Assembly (NCBI GenBank): GCA_046160725.1
Contig: JBJXHB010000079.1
Coordinates: forward strand, 1 to 11,061
Direction: 5' to 3'
DNA: 11,061 nt
DNA from: Aquabacterium sp.
GTDB lineage: Bacteria; Pseudomonadota; Gammaproteobacteria; Burkholderiales; Burkholderiaceae_C
The position numbers and the translations under genes are program-made. Positions 1-8,084 of this stretch are shown one piece after another (the first letter of the stretch is position 1; every line of letters starts with the position of its first letter). The notes beneath the pieces are model-generated. The model had not been told where the DNA came from, made no database searches, and saw nothing but the letters and a program-made list of their open reading frames with translations.

Positions 1-763
1 CGCGCCGCATCATCAGCTCGCGGTTGGTGGCGGCGAAGCGCTGGGCCCAGCCCACGGCGCGCACGTAGTCACCGAAGTAGCGGCTGCCCTCCTCGAAGTA
101 GGCCAGGTCGCGGTCCGGCAGGTTGGCGTTGTTGCGAATCGCGTCCTGCTTGGCCAGTTCGATGAACATCGTGCCGATGAAGTTGCCCACGCCGCGCGAG
201 CCCGAATGCAGCATGAACCACACGAAGCCGGCCTCGTCCAGGCAAACCTCGATGAAGTGGTTGCCGGTGCCCAGGGTGCCCAGGTGCTTGAGGTGATTGG
301 TCTTTTCCAGCTTGGGGTAGTCGCGGCAGAGTTCGGTGAATTCCGGATCCAGCTCGGCCCAGGCGGTGTTGACCGCGCCAGGAGGCTTCTGCCAGGCACC
401 CGGGTCGTGGCCGCCGGGCTTGCGCCCGTGCGGCACCGCGCGCTCGATGGCCGAGCGCAGCGGGCCCAGGTTGTCTGGCAGGTCCTCGGCCGTCAGCGTG
501 GTCTTGCAGGCGATCATGCCGCAGCCGATGTCCACGCCCACCGCGGCCGGGATGATGGCCTTGAGGGTCGGGATCACCGAGCCCACGGTGGCGCCGATGC
601 CGAAGTGCACGTCCGGCATCACCGCAACGTGCGGATGGACGATCGGCAGGCGCGCCGCGTTGGCCAACTGGCGCCGCGCCGCGTCCTCGACCGGCACGCC
701 GTGGGTCCACATCTTCAGCGGCACGCCGCCGGGGCTGTCTTCGTGGATGTGGCCTATTTCCAT
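1..763 (-). CDS. rtcB: RNA-splicing ligase RtcB, partial: N-terminal ~254 aa, C-terminus beyond the window. Start ATG is the reverse complement of 761-763.
   Basis: Manual minus-strand translation MEIGHIHEDSPGGVPLKMWTHGVPVE...VMPDVHFGIGATVGSVIPT...GTLGTGNHFIEVCLD...MLHSGSRGVGN. It is colinear with E. coli RtcB (KMWTKGVPVE, MPDVHLGKG, GNHFIE, HSGSRG metal and GTP-binding motifs). AGGA-like RBS (aaggaaa) about 8 nt upstream. Not in the ORF track because it has no in-window stop. Confidence 0.9.
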   Translation of the reverse strand, partial: MEIGHIHEDSPGGVPLKMWTHGVPVEDAARRQLANAARLPIVHPHVAVMPDVHFGIGATVGSVIPTLKAIIPAAVGVDIGCGMIACKTTLTAEDLPDNLGPLRSAIERAVPHGRKPGGHDPGAWQKPPGAVNTAWAELDPEFTELCRDYPKLEKTNHLKHLGTLGTGNHFIEVCLDEAGFVWFMLHSGSRGVGNFIGTMFIELAKQDAIRNNANLPDRDLAYFEEGSRYFGDYVRAVGWAQRFAATNRELMMRR

Positions 764-791
764 GATGTTTCCTTGATGGTCGAGGGATGAC

Positions 792-1934
792 TCAGCCCTT
801 CAGCGTCACCAGCCCGTTGAGCACCTGGTCCAGGCCGCCGAACACGGTGATTTTGTCGATGCGCTCGGCCACACGTTCCAGCGTCTCGAGTTCCTTCATG
901 CGCAGCGCAACGGGGCTGCCTTCCATCACCTTGGCGGTGTTGAGCAGCGATCGCGTCGCCGCGGTCTCCTCGCGACGCCGGATCGCATTGGCCTCGGCCG
1001 CCTTGCCCGCCTCCACCACCTGCGCCAAGATGGTCTTCATCGCGCCGGGCAGCACGATGTCCTTCACGCCCACGCCGACCAGCTGCATCCCGTAGTCCGC
1101 GAGCCTGGTGCTGACCTGGGTGGTCACGATCTCGTCGATCACCGTCTTGTTTTCCAGCAGTTCGTCGAGCGAACGGGTGCCCACGGCCGCGCGCAGCCCC
1201 AGCTGCAGCTCGCGATACAGGTACTCCGCCGGCTGCTGCAGTTCCCCGTAGGCCAGCTGCACGTCGCTGAACCGCCAGGTGGCCGACAGGTTCAGGCGCA
1301 GCGCCACCTTGTCGCGGGTCAGGATCTCCTGCCCCGAGACCTCGATGGTCTGCAGCCGCAGGTCCACGATCTCCACCGCCACCGGGCGCTTGAACTTCCA
1401 GAACGCGTAGGACCCCGGCTCCAGCAGGCGCTCGACCTTGCCGTAGGTCGACAGGATGCCGGCACCGTGACGGGGCACCTGCACCTGCAGCACGCCGGAC
1501 AGGCCCGCCACCGCAGGCTGGCGCTGCTGCGACTGCAGCAAACGCAACAGGACCGGCGCCGGCACCTCGGCCGACTCCGCGATTTCGATCACCTCGACAT
1601 CCACCGCCACGATGCCCTTCCAGTACAGGCGCCGGGTACCCGGCGGCATCACCTCGACCAGCGCGCCGTTCTCGGTGCGCAGGCCGACCTGGTTCTCGGT
1701 GAGTTCCACGCGCAGGAACTCCGCGGCCACGACCGCGGGCTCGCGGGCCAGCAGGTAGTCGGCCAGGCCATGGGTGAACGCGGCTTGCTCCAGCGCGAAG
1801 ATCTTCACGCTCAGATCGTCCATCGGCGCGACCAGCCAATGCGTGCCGGGCTGCAGCACGCGCTCGAAATCGCCATTGCGCAGCAGCAGGCCGCGTTCGT
1901 TCTTCTTCACAGTGACACGCTTGAGCATCTTCAT
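792..1934 (-). CDS. SPFH/band-7 (stomatin/HflK-like, slipin) domain protein, 380 aa. The N-terminal beta-region is duplicated and there is no obvious N-terminal TM helix.
   Basis: Internal start MKMLKRVTVKKNERGLLLRNGDFERVLQPGTHWL of track ORF 792..2363. GGAGAA RBS 5 nt upstream of ATG (reverse complement of 1932-1934). Second SPFH-like N-strand GKVERLLEPGSYAFWKFKRPVAVEIVDLRLQTIEVSGQEILTRDKVAL. C-terminus AQVVEAGKAAEANAIRRREETAATR...KITVFGG is typical of band-7 coiled-coil tails. The stop lies 28 nt upstream of the rtcB start. Confidence 0.85.
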   Translation of the reverse strand: MKMLKRVTVKKNERGLLLRNGDFERVLQPGTHWLVAPMDDLSVKIFALEQAAFTHGLADYLLAREPAVVAAEFLRVELTENQVGLRTENGALVEVMPPGTRRLYWKGIVAVDVEVIEIAESAEVPAPVLLRLLQSQQRQPAVAGLSGVLQVQVPRHGAGILSTYGKVERLLEPGSYAFWKFKRPVAVEIVDLRLQTIEVSGQEILTRDKVALRLNLSATWRFSDVQLAYGELQQPAEYLYRELQLGLRAAVGTRSLDELLENKTVIDEIVTTQVSTRLADYGMQLVGVGVKDIVLPGAMKTILAQVVEAGKAAEANAIRRREETAATRSLLNTAKVMEGSPVALRMKELETLERVAERIDKITVFGGLDQVLNGLVTLKG

Positions 1935-2693
1935 GGTGTTCTCCGGTTGTGGGATGCGTGGGGTGGTCTGGTGACGGTGTAGGTGCCGTACAGCAGCAGC
2001 CGCGGACCGCGAATGCCAGGGCTGGGGCACCAGGGTGTGCCGAGGCCGTCTTCGGTTCGCCGGGTTGCGCAACCCCGCAAGGGGCTTCGCGCCGGGCGAT
2101 GAAGGCCGTCTCGGCTGGCCATGGGCGCCATGCCCCGCTTGCTCGCGGCACAAGCGGCCGCCGCTGATGGGCCGGTGCCCCGCTGCCTTGCGGCAGCCGT
2201 GCAACGTCCCACGTCCGGCGTGGTCTTTCGACCAGCTTCTGGGTTTCAATACCAGGACTTGCAGCGGGGGGTTGTGCCCGCCTTGAACAACGGTTTCAGT
2301 CGTTGTTCGTCTGCAGCTTCGGGCGGTCCGGCATGGACGACACCAACGGGCGGACCCGGGCATCGCCCACCAGCGGGGAGAACCTCACGTTGCAACGAGG
2401 CCCGATCCCCTGGCCTTTCGGCTCTCGCCTTCCTCAGCAGATTCGTGTGTGCCCGGGCCACTCAGCCCAGGCGCGATCCTTTCGGCGGCCGGTTTGACCG
2501 GCACGATGGTTGTTCTGTCGCACGCACTTCGGCTGTGTCCCTGCGCGAGAATCCCGTCGGATGTGGTGTCTCGCTGCACGGGGCCAGGCCCTGGACCGCG
2601 CACATCCCGGGCCACCAACACCTGTCGGCGTGGCCACGGAGTGCAGGGGCACACCCGAAGTGGGGCGATCAGAAAAGCGATCGAACAAAGAAA

Positions 2694-2724
2694 GAGGCCC
2701 GGATCCTTTCGGCATCCGGGCCTC
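2694..2724 (-). terminator. Rho-independent terminator on the minus strand. Perfect 11-bp GC-rich stem (gaggcccggat / atccgggcctc) with a 9-nt loop, then UUUCUUUGUU on the minus strand.
   Basis: Read directly. 2694-2704 pairs with 2714-2724. The plus strand has an A-rich run (aaagaaag) 5' of the stem and no T-run 3', so the terminator is oriented for minus-strand transcripts coming from >2724. Confidence 0.5.
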
Positions 2725-2942
2725 TGCGTACAGAGTGGGAAGGTGCGCGCGAACTAGTGGTGTCCTGCGTGTCCTTCACCCGGAATCGATGGGCCCTGGG
2801 CGCTGCCGCGTGGGCCGACGCCTATTGAGGCAAGGCCCAGCGCAACGCGTGCGACCACACCCCGGCCCTGTGTGGGTGGGTTGGTCCAATGGGCGCGGTG
2901 TGTCTTCACGGTCTGGCTCGGTGGGTCGATTCGGGGCGGACT

Positions 2943-2957
2943 GTAAAGAGTCTTTAC
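2943..2957. promoter_or_regulatory. AT-rich 7-1-7 perfect palindrome GTAAAGA-G-TCTTTAC, 24 nt upstream of the HTH regulator start. Candidate operator overlapping its promoter.
   Basis: Read directly. It is an AT-rich island in 70% GC DNA, immediately 5' of the ATG at 2981. Confidence 0.35.
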
Positions 2958-2980
2958 GCAGCCGTCAACCCCCTGCGAGA

Positions 2981-3394
2981 ATGTTCTTCCCCCTTGTTGT
3001 GGATCGAGCGCGGCGCGTGTCCAACCTCACTGTTGCCAGAAGGCGCAATGCCCTGGCCCTGTTCCAGGACTTCGCCGAGCGCGCGGTAGCCGGCGGCGGG
3101 TCACCGAAGGGGCTGGAGCAGGCCTTCGCGGCCCTGCTGCAGGTCTCGCCCAGCATGTGGAGCCAGGTCAAGTCCGCGCGGCCGATCGGCGACAAGCTGG
3201 CGCGGCAGATCGAGGCCGCCTGCGGCAAGCCATCGGGCTGGCTCGACGAGGAACGCGCGGCGGCCGTGCTCAGCCCTGCCGAGCAGACCTTTCTCGATCT
3301 CGCGCTGGCGGCCTACCGGTCGACGAATGCGCAGGGGAGACGTTCGCTGCGGGCTCAGCTTCAGGCGCTGATGAAGGAGCGCGACACGTCGTAG
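2981..3394 (+). CDS. XRE/Cro-CI family helix-turn-helix transcriptional regulator, 137 aa (phage-repressor-like DNA-binding protein).
   Basis: The C-terminal part of track ORF 2510..3394. The upstream 150 aa are R/G-rich junk, so the start is taken at ATG 2981 (GTG 2999 is an alternative). The HTH signature LQVSPSMWSQVKSARPIGDKLARQIEAACGKPSGWLDEE matches the Cro/CI helix2-helix3 and 'G.R.P...wL' pattern. Confidence 0.55.
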   Translation: MFFPLVVDRARRVSNLTVARRRNALALFQDFAERAVAGGGSPKGLEQAFAALLQVSPSMWSQVKSARPIGDKLARQIEAACGKPSGWLDEERAAAVLSPAEQTFLDLALAAYRSTNAQGRRSLRAQLQALMKERDTS

Positions 3395-3651
3395 CTCATC
3401 GGCAGGTCCTGTGCCGCCACGTGGCCATGGCGTCGTACCCGATTGCCTTCAGGGACGCTTGTTCGGGCGGCGCCTTCGGGCTGTCTGCGGTGTGTCGGGA
3501 TGTCCGCTGTCGTTTCGCTTGACGCATTGGCGCGGCAAGGCCCGGGCCGGCGGGCTTGGCAGCCAGAGTCCGGCGCCCGGCCCTGCGGTCCGGGTGCCCT
3601 GCGATCCTCGGCACGGGGCTTAAAGCATGAGCACTTGGCCCAACCCGGGGA

Positions 3652-3686
3652 CCCCTGCGGCCCCTGCGCCCCTGCGGCCCCTGCGG
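3652..3686. repeat. Tandem repeat, ~4 copies of the 9-nt unit CCCCTGCGG (one copy 8 nt), ending in GGGGG.
   Basis: Read directly at 3652-3690, in ORF-poor DNA between the HTH regulator and the TA module. Confidence 0.6.
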
Positions 3687-3851
3687 GGGCTGTCGAGATC
3701 GGACAACAAATCCGAACCACCGGCAGCCAGATTCAACAGATCGCTATGGTCCAAGTCACGCAAACTGGCCTCCACGAAACCCGGTGCGGTTCACGGCGCC
3801 GGTGCGCCGCAGTTGCAAGCCATCCGAGCGGGCGGCTCATGCCGAGTCAAG

Positions 3852-3880
3852 TTGCGAGGATATATCCATTTCAGTATAGT
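3852..3880 (+). promoter_or_regulatory. Sigma70-type promoter TTGCGA-17nt-TATAGT for the toxin-antitoxin operon. The spacer contains the perfect palindrome GGATATATCC (3858-3867). The -10 ends 6 nt before the toxin ATG, so the mRNA is probably leaderless.
   Basis: Read directly. The 17-nt spacer is exact and there is no SD between the -10 and ATG 3887. The palindrome is a plausible antitoxin autorepression operator. Confidence 0.5.
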
Positions 3881-3886
3881 CACGCC

Positions 3887-4063
3887 ATGAAGGCGATCAC
3901 CTTCCTGGGCAACTCGCTGGCGTGCTTGCGCGATTTCCCAGAGGACGCGAGACAGGACGCCGGTTACGTGCTGCACGCCTTCCAGAAGAAGACCCAGGCC
4001 ACCAGCAAGCAGGACATCGAGATTGCGAGAAGTCGATACACCGAACTGATGCGAGGGCGTTGA
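3887..4063 (+). pseudogene. HigB/RelE-ParE-fold toxin (HI1419 / Gp49-like 'addiction module killer' family) with an in-frame internal deletion. It encodes 58 aa against ~100-115 aa expected.
   Basis: MKAITFLGNSLACLRDFPEDARQDAGY joined directly to VLHAFQKKTQATSKQDIEIARSRYTELMRGR. The conserved N-terminus and the C-terminal 'VYVLHAFQKKTQKT' box are present, but the central beta-sheet core (~45 aa) is missing. The stop overlaps the antitoxin start (ATGA-type overlap at 4061-4065). Confidence 0.6.
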
Positions 4064-4347
4064 TGAAGAAGCGAGACAAGACCTACGCCAGCGTCTGGGA
4101 CGCCCTGGCCGACACGCCCGAGCAGGCGGCCAACCTGCAGGCCAGGGCGGACCTGATGCGCCAGCTCGCCGAGCTGATCCAGGCCAAGGGCTGGAAACAG
4201 ATCGAAGCGGCCGAGCGCTGCGGTGTCACTCAGCCACGCATCAACGATCTGCTGCGCGGGCGCGTGTCGCGGTTCTCGCTCGATGCTCTGGTGAACATCG
4301 CGACGTCGCTCGGGCGGCGCGTGAGCGTGGAGCTCGAAGCGGCCTGA
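4063..4347 (+). CDS. higA: HigA-family / HTH_37-type antitoxin (XRE HTH), 94 aa.
   Basis: MKKRDKTYASVWDALADTPEQAANLQARADLMRQLAELIQAKGWKQIEAAERCGVTQPRINDLLRGRVSRFSLDALVNIATSLGRRVSVELEAA, with the characteristic 'PRI(S/N)DLLRGR...FSLDALV...LGRRV' signature of antidotes paired with Gp49/HigB-like toxins. The track ORF 3922..4347 uses an upstream in-frame ATG. ATG 4063 is preferred because it overlaps the toxin stop. Confidence 0.8.
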   Translation: MKKRDKTYASVWDALADTPEQAANLQARADLMRQLAELIQAKGWKQIEAAERCGVTQPRINDLLRGRVSRFSLDALVNIATSLGRRVSVELEAA

Positions 4348-4386: not shown

Positions 4387-5364
4387 TCAGGCCAGCGCTA
4401 GGAACACCCCAAACCATCCCCGCTCGTCGGTCCAGTGCTGCACATCCCGCCAGCCCGCGTCGTGCAGCAGGGCCTTGAAGCCGGGCAGCGTCCACTTGTA
4501 CGAGTTCTCGGTGTGCATCCGCTCGCCGGCGGCAAAGGCGCGCTGCCCGCCGTCGAACGACACCGTGACATCACGCCGCGCCTGCAGATGCATCTCGATG
4601 CGCGACTCGGCGGTGTTGAAGAAGGCCACATGGGCCCAGTCACGGACGTGGAAGTCCGCGCCGATCAGGGCGTTCACGTGCTTGAGCAGGTTGAGGTTGA
4701 AGGCCGCCGTCACCCCCAGCGCGTCGTCATAGGCCGGCTCCAGGATGTCGCTAGCCTTGACCAGGTCGACGCCGATCAGCAGCGCGCCGCCGCCGCTGGC
4801 CTCGCGCGCCTCGCGCATCAGGCGCAGCGCATCCTGCGGCGCGAAGTTGCCGATGCTGGAGCCGGGGTAGAAGACCACGGCCGGGCCGCCCGGCAGCTCG
4901 GCCGGCAGCTGCAGGCGCTGCGAGAAGTCCAGCCCCAGGCCCACCATCTCGATGCCGGGATGCTCCCGCGCCAGGCGCGTCACGCCGTCGCGCAGATAGG
5001 CCACCGAGATGTCCACCGGCACATAGCGGCGCGGCCGCATCAGCGGAAACAGCCGCGCACTCTTGGCCCCATCGCCCGCGCCCAGGTCGATCCAGGTCAA
5101 GTCCGTGCCGACCGCCGCGTGCACCGCGGCGGCCATCGCCGGCCCGTGCGCCGCGAAGATGGCGGCCTCGGTGCGGGTCGGGTAGTACTCCGGCAGCTCG
5201 GTGATGGCGTCGAACAGCCGCGACCCCAGCGGGTCGTACAGATACTTGGGAGAAACCCGCGCTGGCGACAGGGCCAGGCCGGCGCGCAGCTCGGCGCGCA
5301 CACCCTCCTGGTCCTCGTGATGCAGCTGGATGAAGCGCGCCGGCGCGACTTGGATGGTGGGCAT
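4387..5364 (-). CDS. egtD: L-histidine N-alpha-methyltransferase EgtD (ergothioneine biosynthesis), 325 aa.
   Basis: Track ORF 4387..5487 trimmed to the internal start MPTIQVAPARF (ATG is the reverse complement of 5362-5364). Sequence shows ...YLYDPLGSRLFDAITELPEYYPTRTE...VDLGAGDG...FYPGSSIGNF...ENSYKWT..., the EgtD/dimethylhistidine methyltransferase fold and length. Confidence 0.88.
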   Translation of the reverse strand: MPTIQVAPARFIQLHHEDQEGVRAELRAGLALSPARVSPKYLYDPLGSRLFDAITELPEYYPTRTEAAIFAAHGPAMAAAVHAAVGTDLTWIDLGAGDGAKSARLFPLMRPRRYVPVDISVAYLRDGVTRLAREHPGIEMVGLGLDFSQRLQLPAELPGGPAVVFYPGSSIGNFAPQDALRLMREAREASGGGALLIGVDLVKASDILEPAYDDALGVTAAFNLNLLKHVNALIGADFHVRDWAHVAFFNTAESRIEMHLQARRDVTVSFDGGQRAFAAGERMHTENSYKWTLPGFKALLHDAGWRDVQHWTDERGWFGVFLALA

Positions 5365-5506
5365 CGGGTTCACTGTAGCGGGGCTTGACCGACCGCCGCA
5401 CGGGTGGATGGCGGCTGAGTTGTAATCTGCGGCCGATGCGCGGCGACCTTCCGTCGCACCGGCCGGTGCCGTCCTTCGTCGTTCCAACCCTGACTGGAGT
5501 TACGCC

Positions 5507-6373
5507 ATGCTCGACCTTTCCCCCTCCCGCACCCTGAAAGCCCTGATGACCCTGGCGCTGGTGGCCATCGGCACGCTGGCGCATGCCCAGGCCGTGTTCC
5601 GCGTCACCACCATACCGGAGGAGGCGGCCACCGAGCAGGTGCGCAAGTTCACCCCGTTGGCGACGTACCTTGAAAAGAAGTTGGGCGTGAAGGTCGAGTT
5701 CACCCCGGTCAGCGACTATCCCGCCGCCGTCGAGGCCCTGGTCAACAAGAAGGTCGACCTGGTCTGGTTTGGTGGCTTCACCCATGTGCAGGCGCAGATC
5801 CGCTCCGGCGGCAAGATCGTGCCGATCGCGCAGCGCGAGGAAGACACCCAGTTCCGCTCGGTCTTCATTGCCAAGACCGACTCCGGCATCAAGACCATGG
5901 CCGACATGAAGGGCAAGCAGGTCAGCTTCGGATCGCAGAGCAGCACCTCGGGCCACCTGATGCCGCGCAGCAACCTGCTGGACGCCGGCATCAACCCGGA
6001 CAAGGATTTCCGCCGCATCGCCTACAGCGGTGCGCATGACGCGACCATCGCCTCGGTGGTCAGCGGCAAGGTCGACGCCGCCGCGCTGGACATCACCGTG
6101 TGGCGCAAGTTCGTGTCCGAGAACAAGGTCGACACCAAGGCGGTCGACGTGTTCTTCACCACCCCCCCGTACTACAACTACAACTGGTCGGTGCATGCCG
6201 ACATGCCCGCCGCGATGCGCGACAGGGTGCAGAAGGCACTGCTGGACCTGGACTCGGCCACGCCGGAAGGCAAGGAGATCCTGCAGTTGAACCGGGCCAC
6301 GCGCTACATCCCGACCAAGGCCGAGAACTACAAGGGCCTGGAGGCCGCCGGCCGCAGCGCCGGGCTGATCTGA
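5507..6373 (+). CDS. phnD: PhnD/PtxB-family periplasmic substrate-binding protein of a phosphonate-type ABC transporter, 288 aa with a signal peptide.
   Basis: N-terminal signal MLDLSPSRTLKALMTLALVAIGTLAHAQA. Colinear with E. coli PhnD (KLGVKVEF..DY.....KVDLVWFGG; anion-binding loop FGSQSSTSGHLMP vs FGNGDPNSTSGFLVP). GGAG RBS at 5496-5499. Confidence 0.85.
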   Translation: MLDLSPSRTLKALMTLALVAIGTLAHAQAVFRVTTIPEEAATEQVRKFTPLATYLEKKLGVKVEFTPVSDYPAAVEALVNKKVDLVWFGGFTHVQAQIRSGGKIVPIAQREEDTQFRSVFIAKTDSGIKTMADMKGKQVSFGSQSSTSGHLMPRSNLLDAGINPDKDFRRIAYSGAHDATIASVVSGKVDAAALDITVWRKFVSENKVDTKAVDVFFTTPPYYNYNWSVHADMPAAMRDRVQKALLDLDSATPEGKEILQLNRATRYIPTKAENYKGLEAAGRSAGLI

Positions 6374-7247: not shown

Positions 7248-8084
7248 ATGACCGCACCGACGCTGCCCGCCCCGCCCAGCCGCGACCCGGCCTGGGTGTC
7301 GCGCGTCGCCCTGCTCAGCGTGGCGGCGGTGCTGCTGTGGCCGCTGATGGTGGCCACGGAGTTCAAGCCCTGGATCTTCCTGGAGCGGGACAACCTCAAG
7401 GTCACCGGGCAGTTCCTGGCCAGCTTCCTGCCGCCGGCCCACTCGGCCGAGTTCATGGCCATGGTGGCGCGCGAGAGCTGGCGCACGGTGGCCATCGCCA
7501 CCGCCGGCATGACCCTGGCGCTGGTAATCGCCATCCCGCTGGCGGTGCTGTCCGCCCGGGTGCTGTCGGTGTCGGCGCTGTCGGGCCGAATGGCGCGCGG
7601 GCCGACGCTGCTGCGCCAGGCCGTGCGCTGGCTGCTGATCGTGCTGCGCAGCGTGCCCGAGCTGGTGTGGGCGCTGGTGTTCGTCCGCGTGGTCGGCCTG
7701 GGCCCCACGGCCGGCGTGCTGGCCATCGCCCTGACGTATGGCGGCATGCTGGGCAAGGTCTACGGCGAGATCCTGGAAAGCGGCGAGCCCCATGCCACCC
7801 AGACGCTGCTGCGCAACGGCGGCTCGCGCCTGCAGGCCTTCGCCTACGGCCTGCTGCCGCAGAACGCCGCCGAGCTGACCAGCTACACCGTCTACCGCTG
7901 GGAGTGCGCCATCCGCAGCTCGGTGGTGCTGGGCTTCGTCGGTGCCGGCGGGCTGGGCCAGCAGCTGGACAACTCGATGAAGATGTTCAATGGCGGCGAG
8001 GTGCTGACCATGCTGGCCGTCTTCGTCGGCCTGGTGGCGCTGGCCGACCGCGTCAGCGCGGGCCTGCGGCGGGCCCTGGGGTGA
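7248..8084 (+). CDS. phnE: Phosphonate-type ABC transporter permease PhnE (copy 1), 278 aa.
   Basis: Multi-TM hydrophobic protein with the PhnE/PtxC-type EAA-like loop region. Starts 24 nt after the phnC stop. Confidence 0.85.
   Translation: MTAPTLPAPPSRDPAWVSRVALLSVAAVLLWPLMVATEFKPWIFLERDNLKVTGQFLASFLPPAHSAEFMAMVARESWRTVAIATAGMTLALVIAIPLAVLSARVLSVSALSGRMARGPTLLRQAVRWLLIVLRSVPELVWALVFVRVVGLGPTAGVLAIALTYGGMLGKVYGEILESGEPHATQTLLRNGGSRLQAFAYGLLPQNAAELTSYTVYRWECAIRSSVVLGFVGAGGLGQQLDNSMKMFNGGEVLTMLAVFVGLVALADRVSAGLRRALG

What the first reader, a model, noticed from the sequence alone, without database searches (positions are those of the whole stretch)
1935..2980. ~1 kb ORF-free, lower-GC, hairpin-dense region containing a repeated GATCCTTTCGGC / GAGGCCCGGATCC motif
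In 70% GC DNA, random ORFs are usually long. Here every frame breaks into short low-complexity ORFs, and GC is visibly lower than in the flanking genes. The 9-mer CCTTTCGGC occurs three times (2414-2422, 2478-2486, 2705-2713). The 12-mer GATCCTTTCGGC occurs twice (2475-2486, 2702-2713). GAGGCCCGATCC at 2397-2408 echoes GAGGCCCGGATCC at 2694-2706. The region also holds many short GC stems with UUCG/GCAA-type loops, for example the GGGTTGCGCAACCC palindrome at 2062-2075, cccc-GCAA-gggg at 2074-2085, and ccgcttg...caagcgg at 2136-2158. This fits a structured non-coding RNA, a cluster of REP/MITE-like intergenic repeats, or the scar of a decayed mobile insertion upstream of the SPFH-rtcB operon.
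Basis: seen in the sequence. Interest (0 to 1): 0.5.

Follow-up and report, generated by a model that had tools for sequence, protein, structure and literature searches.

The report
Collapsed tRNA-array locus with unclassified RNA
The "empty" kilobase upstream of an RNA-repair (SPFH-rtcB) operon is the stripped-down remnant of a tRNA-gene-array island that still holds a small gene, a terminator, a strongly conserved 138-nt pseudoknotted RNA that matches no Rfam family, and a long structured leader.

Summary
The repeated motifs sit at the stated coordinates. They are not a repeat family, GC is not lower than in the flanking genes, and the region is not ORF-free. In 80 related Burkholderiales loci and 16 metagenome contigs the same interval holds a conserved island, all on the window's minus strand:
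- a CI/Cro-like gene facing a sigma70-like promoter that contains a palindrome
- a small ORF followed by an intrinsic terminator
- tRNA-Gly
- a 138-nt RNA ("RNA A")
- 0-21 tRNA genes
- an HNH endonuclease gene
- tRNA-like/YrlA-like modules
- a ~300-nt structured leader, then SPFH-rtcB.

The window is a collapsed version. It has no tRNAs. Only the last ~14 HNH codons survive, and these carry one copy of the motif. The tRNA-like core is deleted. The neighbouring leader segment is mutated at otherwise invariant positions, which creates another motif copy. Still intact are the promoter, a 51-aa ORF (2909..2754), the terminator (whose loop is the third motif copy), RNA A (2662..2525) and the SPFH-proximal leader (2233..1935).

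RNA A has strong covariation support (95.5% of cells paired, 26 of 47 pairs compensatory, plus a pseudoknot). It matches no Rfam family and was found only in this island. Its function is unknown. Loci that lost the tRNAs keep it, which ties it to the regulatory and RNA-repair part.

The parts
2940..2968 (-). Sigma70-like promoter TTGACG-17 nt-TACAGT that drives the small ORF. It faces away from the CI/Cro-like gene.
   Evidence: This is the only promoter-like site found in 1700-3300. The same site is found in L002 and L078. It is conserved in 23 aligned loci.
2943..2957 (.). Palindrome GTAAAGAgTCTTTAC between the -35 and -10 elements. Putative operator of the neighbouring CI/Cro-like protein.
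   Evidence: Nearly invariant in the alignment. Found by regex in 12 of the 16 metagenome loci that carry RNA A. The operator role is inferred.
2754..2909 (-). Small ORF of 51 aa: MKTHRAHWTNPPTQGRGVVARVALGLASIGVGPRGSAQGPSIPGEGHAGHH.
   Evidence: RBS, start codon (GTG swapped for ATG in some loci), reading frame and stop codon are kept in 33-34 loci, with ORF lengths of 43-69 aa. No Pfam or NCBIfam hit. The peptide is weakly constrained: divergence at codon positions 1/2/3 is 0.42/0.44/0.48.
2739..2777 (-). Hairpin whose loop holds the stop codon of the small ORF (GAAGG...CCUUC).
   Evidence: Present in the MFE folds of the window, L002, L013, L017 and L078. The AAGG/CCUU to AGGG/CCCU switch seen in the alignment was read by eye and not counted formally.
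2683..2725 (-). Intrinsic terminator: stem 2693-2704/2714-2725 (12 perfect pairs) followed by UUUCUUUGUU. Its loop holds the motif copy at 2702-2713.
   Evidence: Inverted repeat I2. The orthologous hairpins are called terminators in L002 and L078. The scan did not call the window copy, probably because its loop is 9 nt. Conserved in all loci.
2525..2662 (-). RNA A, 138 nt. It has a 16-bp closing stem P1, helices P3, P4 and P5-P6, and a pseudoknot (GGUGU in the P3 loop pairs with ACACC).
   Evidence: CM R1 scores 146.7 bits. On 43 sequences, 95.5% of cells are paired and 26 of 47 pairs show compensatory changes, against 32-52% paired when partners are slid. Fold z = -5.2. No Rfam hit.
2462..2506 (-). 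Remnant of the 3' end of an HNH endonuclease gene (...NRPPKGSRLG*, stop at 2464-2462). It holds the motif copy at 2475-2486. The deletion junction lies at about 2507-2524.
   Evidence: Alignment with the HNH gene ends of 16 relatives. L002 4915..5490 is an HNH_5 protein. No HNH tblastn hit in the window.
2323..2442 (-). Leader segment 'a', degenerate in the window. It holds the motif copy at 2414-2422.
   Evidence: Conserved in 58 loci. The window deviates at 6 of 36 near-invariant columns, the most of any sequence. One deviation is GCTCACAGG changed to GCCGAAAGG.
2239..2307 (-). Leftovers of the tRNA-like module: an anticodon-arm-like hairpin (2286-2307), a degenerate T-arm (2262-2282) and a further hairpin (2239-2256).
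   Evidence: Relatives have a mini tRNA-like element plus a tRNA-like element here (ARAGORN and Rfam tRNA, 33-59 bits). The window lacks the D-arm, the first T-arm and the acceptor stem, and no tRNA is called.
1935..2233 (-). SPFH-proximal structured leader (segment 'd'). It runs from GGUCGAAAGACC (2233-2222) through CUGUACGGCACC (1994-1983) to the RBS GGAGAA (1944-1939).
   Evidence: The window deviates at 0 of 30 near-invariant columns among 64 loci. RNAalifold on 36 sequences gives 21 of 32 pairs with compensatory changes and a long-range GCCG/CGGC closure.
2054..2100 (-). Window-specific 47-nt expansion of a variable hairpin.
   Evidence: Absent from all aligned relatives.
3017..3394 (+). 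Divergent CI/Cro-like gene (125 aa), the presumed regulator. It lies outside the finding's coordinates.
   Evidence: 2526 homologs, and every one of the 120 listed that carries a name is called 'hypothetical'. No Pfam hit. The alignment profile hits phage CI repressor 7nkv_A at E = 0.0033, and Cro at E = 0.12. It co-occurs with RNA A.
1..1934 (-). SPFH/Band 7 gene (792..1934) and the 5' part of rtcB (about 769 down to 1).
   Evidence: Pfam Band_7 at 1.4e-32. tblastn with L002 RtcB aligns 256 aa. L002 RtcB hits Pfam at 1.6e-128.

Best explanation
The interval 1935-2980 is the non-coding and regulatory head of an RtcB RNA-repair island. In relatives this head carries a long tRNA gene array, and here the array has collapsed. 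Everything is read on the minus strand, towards SPFH-rtcB.

Shown:
- a conserved sigma70-like promoter with an internal palindrome
- a conserved small ORF
- an intrinsic terminator
- a 138-nt pseudoknotted RNA (RNA A), which in relatives sits directly after tRNA-Gly at the head of the array
- a deletion junction with the last ~14 codons of the HNH gene
- a decayed leader segment and fragments of tRNA-like modules
- an intact ~300-nt structured leader that ends at the SPFH ribosome-binding site.

Inferred:
- The CI/Cro-like protein represses the promoter through the palindrome.
- Transcripts that read through the terminator give RNA A and the long leader-SPFH-rtcB mRNA. In array-bearing relatives RNase P and tRNA 3'-end processing would excise RNA A as a stable RNA of about 145 nt.
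- RNA A acts with the regulatory/repair module and not with the tRNAs. It could be a protein-binding scaffold, or a cis-acting element that keeps RNA polymerase going through the long untranslated stretch.

It reads CC-GAAA-GG on the transcribed strand and arose three separate ways.
For: Architecture:
- blastn of the interval against 80 loci shows the conserved blocks, with 0.7-3.6 kb inserted in relatives between about 2490 and 2525.
- ARAGORN and Rfam find arrays of up to 21 tRNAs exactly there, on the SPFH strand.
- The same order is seen in 16 metagenome contigs.

RNA A:
- Covariation is strong and the pseudoknot has independent compensatory variants.
- Invariant U.G/G.U pairs fix the strand.
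- The plus-strand match scores only 44 bits against 147 bits on the minus strand.

Small ORF and terminator.

HNH remnant and loss of the tRNA-like core.

Decay of segment a against intact segment d.

Promoters:
- Only one sigma70-like promoter lies on the minus strand in 1700-3300.
- No sigma54-like promoter is found anywhere in the window.
- No promoter is found between the terminator and tRNA-Gly in L002 or L078.
- Only about 20 nt separate the end of the T-tract (2683) from RNA A (2662) in the window.

Retention of RNA A without tRNAs: the window, L008 and L028, and L173, L247 and L134.

Published link between long tRNA arrays, an HNH endonuclease and rtcB: PMC8421152.
Against: - There are no expression data. 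Read-through of a 12-bp GC-rich terminator is assumed, not shown.
- An anti-terminator pairing between the ORF's HPG codons and the terminator's 5' arm is the best match in only about 9 of 35 loci.
- The small ORF has a low GC3 (0.65, against 0.92 for the SPFH gene) and nearly flat divergence across codon positions. Its product may not matter, or the coding call could be wrong.
- The direction of change (deletion here or insertion in relatives) is inferred from remnants only.
- The window is a whole 11-kb MAG contig, so an assembly collapse cannot be formally excluded.
- The function of RNA A is not constrained by any test made here.
Confidence: 0.72

Rival explanations
1. The region is a cluster of REP/MITE-like intergenic repeats built around GATCCTTTCGGC / GAGGCCCGGATCC.
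For: The 9-mer occurs 3 times against 0.10 expected, and the 12-mer twice against 0.04 expected. RNA A has 16-bp inverted termini, as a MITE would (I1).
Against: - The motif copies map to three unrelated conserved features, and two of them differ in relatives.
- After correcting for post hoc choice the repeat is only marginal, at 4.8% and 10% of simulations.
- The motif occurs nowhere else in the 11-kb window.
- RNA A is single-copy per locus in 62 loci and always sits at the same place.
- RNA A changes by compensatory substitutions and keeps invariant G.U pairs, which is RNA-level selection.
Confidence: 0.03
2. RNA A is a Y RNA (YrlB-like partner of Ro60/Rsr), as in the Salmonella rsr-yrlBA-rtcBA operon.
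For: - It sits in an rtcB island.
- It is 134-166 nt long and has a long stem formed by its 5' and 3' ends.
- It contains GCCGAAG, which fits the GNCGAAN0-1G motif described for bacterial Y RNAs (PMC4201824).
- In relatives the adjacent leader has a weak YrlA-like T-AS-D match (26.5 bits, E = 0.0018).
Against: - RNA A gives no Rfam Y_RNA or YrlA hit even at E <= 10.
- The motif lies on the 3' strand of P1, not near the 5' end.
- RNA A has no T-like or D-like arms.
- No TROVE/Ro60 gene was seen among the tested ORFs of the window or of L002. The neighbouring protein gene is SPFH.
Confidence: 0.1
3. The small ORF and terminator form a leader-peptide attenuator. Ribosome stalling (translation stress or damaged tRNAs) would suppress termination and switch on RNA A, the tRNA array, HNH and SPFH-rtcB.
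For: - The frame, start and stop are conserved while the peptide is weakly constrained.
- The stop codon sits in a hairpin 23-33 nt before the terminator.
- No promoter is detected downstream of the terminator.
- The long tRNA array of Anabaena is induced by translation stress (PMC8421152).
Against: No consistent anti-terminator pairing was found. The palindrome and the CI-like gene point to repressor control, which may be sufficient. There are no transcript data.
Confidence: 0.3
4. The interval is only decaying debris (pseudogenes) with no function of its own.
For: The HNH remnant, the deleted tRNA-like core and the excess of substitutions in segment a.
Against: RNA A, the promoter, the ORF, the terminator and segment d show no excess change at conserved positions, and they keep their structures.
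Confidence: 0.05

Closest known systems
[quoted passage not shown] 2021, PMC8421152; TrcR repressor, PMC10272220)
   Same: Relatives of the window carry up to 21 same-strand tRNA genes next to an HNH endonuclease gene and rtcB. The number of tRNAs varies strongly between genomes. A dedicated repressor-type regulator sits beside the array.
   Different: - The window itself has lost every tRNA gene.
- The regulator candidate is CI/Cro-like, not the ribbon-helix-helix TrcR.
- The operator is a palindrome, not direct repeats.
- An SPFH gene, a small ORF with a terminator, and RNA A are parts of this island. I did not find them mentioned in the parts of those papers that I read.
Bacterial Y RNAs: YrlA/YrlB in the RtcR-controlled rsr-yrlBA-rtcBA operon (Chen et al. 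2014, PMC4201824; Rfam RF02553)
   Same: Structured RNAs encoded between the regulator or promoter and rtcB. In Acidovorax-type relatives an RtcR gene and a sigma54-like promoter precede a leader with a T-AS-D tRNA-like domain that weakly matches YrlA.
   Different: No Ro60/Rsr gene is seen here, and SPFH takes its place. The match is far below the gathering score (26.5 against 69 bits). In the window that domain is deleted. RNA A has no YrlA features.
Phage T4 tRNA gene cluster with 'species 1' and 'species 2' stable RNAs (rnaC, rnaD) and the SegB homing endonuclease. The stable RNAs are cited from my own knowledge. SegB is mentioned in PMC8421152.
   Same: A stable RNA of about 140 nt and unknown function, embedded between tRNA genes of an array that also carries a homing-type endonuclease, and presumably released by tRNA processing.
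   Different: RNA A was not found in IMG/VR viral contigs that match its two most conserved sequence patterns.
Cis-acting processive antitermination RNAs (HK022 put, Bacillus EAR), cited from my own knowledge
   Same: A compact, pseudoknotted RNA placed at the head of a long operon.
   Different: There is no homology (no Rfam hit) and no functional test. This is an analogy only.

Membership tests
Any Rfam 15 family (RNA A and the whole interval) | Covariance-model score at or above the family's gathering score | tested here: not met
   0 hits at gathering score in the window. In 1850-3100 at E <= 10 there are only four chance-level hits of 15-17 bits.
Y RNA / YrlA (for RNA A) | Long stem formed by the 5' and 3' ends | tested here: met
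   P1 has 15 pairs and is 98.6% paired in 43 sequences.
Y RNA / YrlA (for RNA A) | GNCGAAN0-1G motif near the 5' end (PMC4201824) | tested here: not met
   GCCGAAG is present, but on the 3' strand of P1. The 5' strand reads CACUUCGGGUGUG.
Y RNA / YrlA (for RNA A) | tRNA-like T and D stem-loops | tested here: not met
   The consensus structure has none. No tRNA or YrlA match over 2525-2662.
Y RNA / YrlA (for RNA A) | Encoded within about 4 kb of a Ro60/Rsr (TROVE) gene | tested here: inconclusive
   No TROVE hit among the ORFs scanned in the window and in L002. Not every ORF or locus was scanned, and the rest of the genome is not available.
YrlA-like leader of SPFH-rtcB | T-AS-D tRNA-like domain that matches RF02553 | tested here: inconclusive
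   L045 5605-5664 scores 26.5 bits, E = 0.0018, against a gathering score of 69. In the window this domain is deleted.
Long tRNA gene array (L-array) island | Many tRNA genes in one orientation | tested here: not met
   The window has no tRNA in 1935-2980. Relatives have up to 21.
Long tRNA gene array (L-array) island | Linked HNH endonuclease gene | tested here: not met
   Only the last ~14 codons remain in the window and there is no tblastn hit. The gene is complete in most relatives.
Long tRNA gene array (L-array) island | Linked rtcB | tested here: met
   The 5' part of rtcB lies downstream of SPFH in the window. RtcB hits Pfam in L002.
REP / MITE-like dispersed repeat | The same element at many places in a genome | not testable with these tools
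   The source is an 11-kb MAG contig. Within it the motifs occur only in this interval. RNA A occurs once per locus.
REP / MITE-like dispersed repeat | The repeat unit itself is conserved in relatives | tested here: not met
   The copy at 2414-2422 is window-specific. The terminator loop differs in relatives.
Rho-independent terminator (2683-2725, minus strand) | GC-rich hairpin followed by a U-tract | tested here: met
   12 perfect pairs followed by UUUCUUUGUU. The orthologs are called by the scan. The window copy was not called, probably because its loop is 9 nt.
RtcR/sigma54-controlled rtc operon | Adjacent rtcR gene and a TGGCAC-N5-TTGC promoter | tested here: not met
   No RtcR tblastn hit in the window. 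No sigma54-like site with up to 2 mismatches. Both are present in 22 other loci, of which 21 lack the array.

The most novel reading that the evidence does not exclude
RNA A is a previously undescribed class of functional RNA, specific to a Burkholderiales RNA-repair / tRNA-array island. It would work as a cofactor or sensor of the SPFH-RtcB system, or as a cis-acting element that carries RNA polymerase through the long untranslated array and leader. The SPFH-rtcB leader would be a Ro-independent relative of the tRNA-like Y RNAs.
Probability: 0.45. Interest if true: 0.7.

Novelty: new variant of a known kind. Interest (0 to 1): 0.6.

Why it matters
The function of long tRNA arrays is still poorly understood. 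The published link between them, an HNH endonuclease and rtcB rests mostly on cyanobacteria.

This locus family gives a natural series running from 21 tRNAs down to none. The series separates what belongs to the tRNAs from what belongs to the regulatory and repair core. The core is a CI-like regulator, a small ORF with a terminator, a strongly constrained pseudoknotted RNA, and a long structured leader in front of SPFH-rtcB.

Three things follow:
- It supplies a well-supported candidate RNA family, with an alignment and model in hand, whose role in RNA repair or array expression can be tested directly.
- It shows YrlA-like tRNA mimicry in rtc operons that have SPFH where Ro60 would be.
- It is a warning that an eye-catching repeated motif can be a coincidence of three unrelated constrained elements.

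Tried and rejected
- Rfam at gathering score and at E <= 10: nothing.
- tRNA scan of the window: nothing in the interval.
- Exact-protein look-up of the SPFH protein: not on record.
- Lower-GC and ORF-poverty claims: rejected by numbers.
- Coding explanation for block 2525-2667: rejected. The block shows covariation and invariant G.U pairs, and in relatives it lies between tRNA genes.
- REP/MITE reading: rejected.
- Viral origin or viral presence of RNA A: no CM hit in 86 IMG/VR stretches that match its two most conserved sequence patterns.
- Anti-terminator between the ORF's HPG codons and the terminator's 5' arm: not consistent across loci.
- Sigma54 promoter in the window: none.
- Promoter between the terminator and the array in relatives: none found.
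- Pfam and NCBIfam on the small ORF and the CI-like protein: nothing. My first two scans of the CI-like gene used out-of-frame coordinates (3001 and 3019). The true start is the GTG at 3017.
- My first deviation count for segment d accidentally left out the window. It was redone correctly.
- Literature searches for tRNA arrays in these genera, and for T4 species 1/2 RNAs, found nothing usable.
Full report
**What the sequence shows**

The window is a complete 11,061-bp contig of an Aquabacterium sp. MAG. An SPFH/Band 7 gene lies on the minus strand at 792..1934 (Pfam 1.4e-32). Downstream of it is the 5' part of rtcB (256 aa aligned). A 125-aa gene lies on the plus strand at 3017..3394. The finding covers the 1.05 kb between them.

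The motif coordinates are exact:
- CCTTTCGGC occurs three times, against 0.10 expected.
- GATCCTTTCGGC occurs twice, against 0.04 expected.

The motif was chosen after it was seen. In simulations some 9-mer reaches three copies in 4.8% of runs, and some 12-mer reaches two copies in 10%.

- GC is 0.670, against 0.673 for SPFH and 0.678 for rtcB, so it is not lower.
- The longest stop-free stretch is 241 codons, which equals the random expectation of 231 +/- 55. A real small ORF is also present (below).

'Hairpin-dense' holds. Fold z-scores on the minus strand are -3.5, -4.1 and -5.2 for the three parts tested.

**Comparative anatomy**

The SPFH protein recovered 80 related loci, all Burkholderiales (Piscinibacter, Ideonella, Rubrivivax, Aquabacterium, Acidovorax and others).

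blastn of the interval against these loci gave three results:
- Block 2525-2667 is 84-89% identical across genera.
- There are further conserved blocks at 2685-2750, 2933-2983, 1982-2040, 2100-2242 and 2310-2486.
- In many relatives 0.7-3.6 kb is inserted between about 2490 and 2525.

ARAGORN and Rfam show that the inserted DNA is an array of up to 21 tRNA genes on the SPFH strand. An HNH_5 endonuclease gene follows the array, and SPFH is followed by RtcB.

The full island, read towards SPFH, is:
1. A CI/Cro-like gene, transcribed divergently.
2. A promoter with a palindrome.
3. A small ORF.
4. A terminator.
5. A conserved ~130-nt array leader.
6. tRNA-Gly(GCC).
7. RNA A.
8. The tRNA genes.
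9. The HNH gene.
10. Leader segment a.
11. Two tRNA-like modules.
12. Leader segment d.
13. SPFH, then RtcB.

Sixteen metagenome contigs found through a conserved RNA A pattern show the same order.

Twenty-two loci carry a divergent RtcR gene with a sigma54-like promoter. Twenty-one of them, mostly Acidovorax, have no CI-like gene, small ORF, RNA A, array or HNH gene. L036 has RtcR together with the array. All of them share leader segments a and d and the tRNA-like modules.

**The window is a collapsed version**

- It has no tRNA gene.
- Only about 20 nt lie between the terminator's T-tract and RNA A, where relatives have the array leader and tRNA-Gly. The last ~11 nt before RNA A still resemble the 3' end of tRNA-Gly.
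- After RNA A, about 20 nt lead into the last ~14 codons and stop of the HNH gene (...PKGSRLG*).
- The mini tRNA-like element, and the D-arm and acceptor of the second tRNA-like element, are missing. An anticodon-arm-like hairpin and a degenerate T-arm remain.
- Segment a deviates at 6 of 36 near-invariant columns, the most of 58 sequences.
- Segment d deviates at 0 of 30. It carries a window-specific 47-nt hairpin expansion at 2054-2100.

L008, L028 and the metagenome loci L173, L247 and L134 are also array-less, with different junctions.

**The repeated motif explained**

On the transcribed strand all three copies read CC-GAAA-GG.
- Copy 2702-2713 is the loop of the terminator hairpin.
- Copy 2475-2486 encodes P-K-G-S at the end of the lost HNH gene.
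- Copy 2414-2422 is a window-specific change of the otherwise invariant GCUCACAGG to GCCGAAAGG.

The hairpin at 2136-2158 belongs to the conserved segment d structure.

**RNA A (2662..2525, minus strand)**

I built an alignment of 29 sequences and then 43 sequences. It supports these elements:
- P1, a 16-bp closing stem whose sequence is nearly invariant.
- P3, whose loop carries GGUGUUG.
- P4, with an invariant tandem U.G/G.U.
- P5 stacked on the P6 hairpin.
- A pseudoknot between the P3 loop and ACACC, which lies between P5 and P6.

On the 43 sequences:
- 95.5% of cells are paired, against 32-52% when the partners are slid.
- 26 of 47 pairs have compensatory changes.
- No shuffle reaches the observed values.

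The pseudoknot keeps complementarity through independent variants: GGUGC/GCACC, GGUUG/CAACC, GGUC/GACC, AAACUG/CAGUUU and AAAGUGC/GCGCUUU. L067 and L055 are exceptions.

The G.U pairs, and the score difference between strands (147 against 44 bits), place the RNA on the tRNA/SPFH strand.

In array-bearing loci RNA A begins on the CA of tRNA-Gly's CCA and ends 7-18 nt before the next tRNA. tRNA processing would therefore release it. This is an inference.

Distribution:
- It occurs once per locus, in 46 of the 81 sequences searched (80 related loci plus the window).
- It accompanies the CI-like gene in every locus where that gene was detected. L010 only appears to lack it, because an N-run interrupts it there.
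- It matches no Rfam family.
- It was not found in viral contigs that match its two most conserved sequence patterns.

**Small ORF, terminator and promoter**

The promoter TTGACG-17-TACAGT encloses the palindrome GTAAAGAcTCTTTAC. It is the only promoter-like site found on the minus strand here and in two relatives.

A ribosome-binding site and a GTG start follow (ATG in L017, L019 and L023). The frame then stays open to a stop codon 23-33 nt before the terminator. This holds in all 33-34 loci, with about 15 different ORF lengths between 43 and 69 aa.

The peptide is weakly constrained. It has an N-terminal MK..RTHRP.QG motif and a C-terminal HPGEGSA motif. Divergence at codon positions 1/2/3 is 0.42/0.44/0.48, and GC3 is 0.65. 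The stop codon lies in the loop of a hairpin. This pattern would fit a leader peptide, but I found no consistent anti-terminator.

The neighbouring protein has no Pfam or NCBIfam family. Its alignment profile matches phage CI repressor (7nkv_A, E = 0.0033) over the recognition-helix region. This supports the regulator assignment only weakly.

**The SPFH leader**

Segment d folds into a large domain closed by a long-range GCCG/CGGC pairing. In it, 21 of 32 predicted pairs show compensatory changes across 36 loci.

In Acidovorax kalamii (L045) the transcript would start at a sigma54-like promoter next to RtcR. It would contain a T-AS-D domain that matches Rfam YrlA weakly (26.5 bits, E = 0.0018, gathering score 69). 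This echoes the known rsr-yrlBA-rtcBA arrangement (PMC4201824), but with SPFH in place of Ro60.

The window has lost that domain, has no RtcR gene and has no sigma54-like site.

**Interpretation and limits**

Shown by the analyses:
- the island's architecture
- the RNA-level conservation of RNA A and of segment d
- the conservation of the small ORF and the terminator
- the remnants and the decay in the window.

Inferred only:
- repression through the palindrome
- read-through of the terminator as the source of RNA A and the leader-SPFH-rtcB transcript
- excision of RNA A by tRNA processing
- any function for RNA A.

RNA A stays intact in loci that lost all tRNAs and the HNH gene. I therefore think it serves the regulatory and RNA-repair part of the island. 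It may be a protein-binding scaffold or a cis-acting element for transcription through the long untranslated stretch. Nothing tested here tells these two roles apart.

Published work links long tRNA arrays to an HNH endonuclease, to rtcB and to translation stress (PMC8421152). An RNA like RNA A was not mentioned in the passages I read.

Noticed in passing
L002 2441-2579, L078 2469-2608 and equivalents (absent from the window): A conserved ~130-nt 'array leader' lies between the terminator and tRNA-Gly. It has three small hairpins, the single-stranded stretch CGCUCUUUAACAAnUUGC, and a long covarying hairpin with the conserved loop GGUACUGGCC. No promoter-like site was detected in it.
   Followed up: partly
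L045 5423-5439 and 5605-5701; 22 RtcR-type loci: Acidovorax-type loci have rtcR, a sigma54-like promoter (TGGCACacatcTGGCA) and a leader with a YrlA-like T-AS-D domain plus a tRNA-like element whose 'anticodon loop' is a GAAA tetraloop. The protein gene that follows is SPFH, not Ro60/Rsr.
   Followed up: partly
About 250-370 nt upstream of SPFH in most loci (e.g. L002 5688-5754): The tRNA-like element is called by ARAGORN with a different 'anticodon' in almost every genome (Met, Ile, Thr, Val, Cys, Phe, Glu, or undetermined). Its acceptor stem is often truncated (Rfam tRNA model positions 4-67).
   Followed up: partly
L046, L047, L048, L051, L056, L058, L062, L065, L079 (about 270-300 nt upstream of SPFH): The conserved GGTCGAAAGACC hairpin is duplicated 27 nt apart in these loci. 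It also fits the GNCGAAN0-1G Y RNA motif.
   Followed up: no
L036 (Albitalea terrae): The only locus with both a divergent RtcR gene and the array, HNH gene and RNA A. The array module sits upstream of rtcR.
   Followed up: no
L173 and L247 (metagenome): Two copies of the palindromic promoter lie about 2.6 kb apart, with extra DNA between the CI-like gene and the small-ORF unit. RNA A follows the terminator directly and no tRNAs are present.
   Followed up: no
Loci where RtcB starts about 1.9-2.3 kb, not about 1.2 kb, after the SPFH start (e.g. L005, L013, L021, L078): An additional gene of about 1 kb lies between SPFH and rtcB in many relatives. It was not identified.
   Followed up: no
window 3443-4347 (+): A Gp49/HigB-like domain (Pfam 3.4e-08, C-terminal part of ORF 3443..4063) is followed by an HTH_37/HTH_3 protein (3922..4347). 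This is probably a HigBA-type toxin-antitoxin pair.
   Followed up: no
window 4387-5487 (-) and 5507-6373 (+): A histidine-specific SAM methyltransferase (Methyltransf_33, EgtD-like, 2.4e-97) and a phosphonate-binding periplasmic protein (2.9e-70).
   Followed up: no
window 7308-7392 (+): ARAGORN calls an 85-nt tRNA-Ile(GAT) here, but Rfam finds no tRNA at gathering score. It is probably a false positive inside coding sequence with very high GC.
   Followed up: no
L010 1859-1940: A run of N interrupts RNA A in this MAG scaffold. This is why the model did not report it there.
   Followed up: yes
RNA A alignment columns 14/220 (A3): One P1 position alternates between U.G (28), C-G (6), U-A (3) and C.A (6). 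This suggests that a wobble-type geometry is tolerated or preferred there.
   Followed up: no
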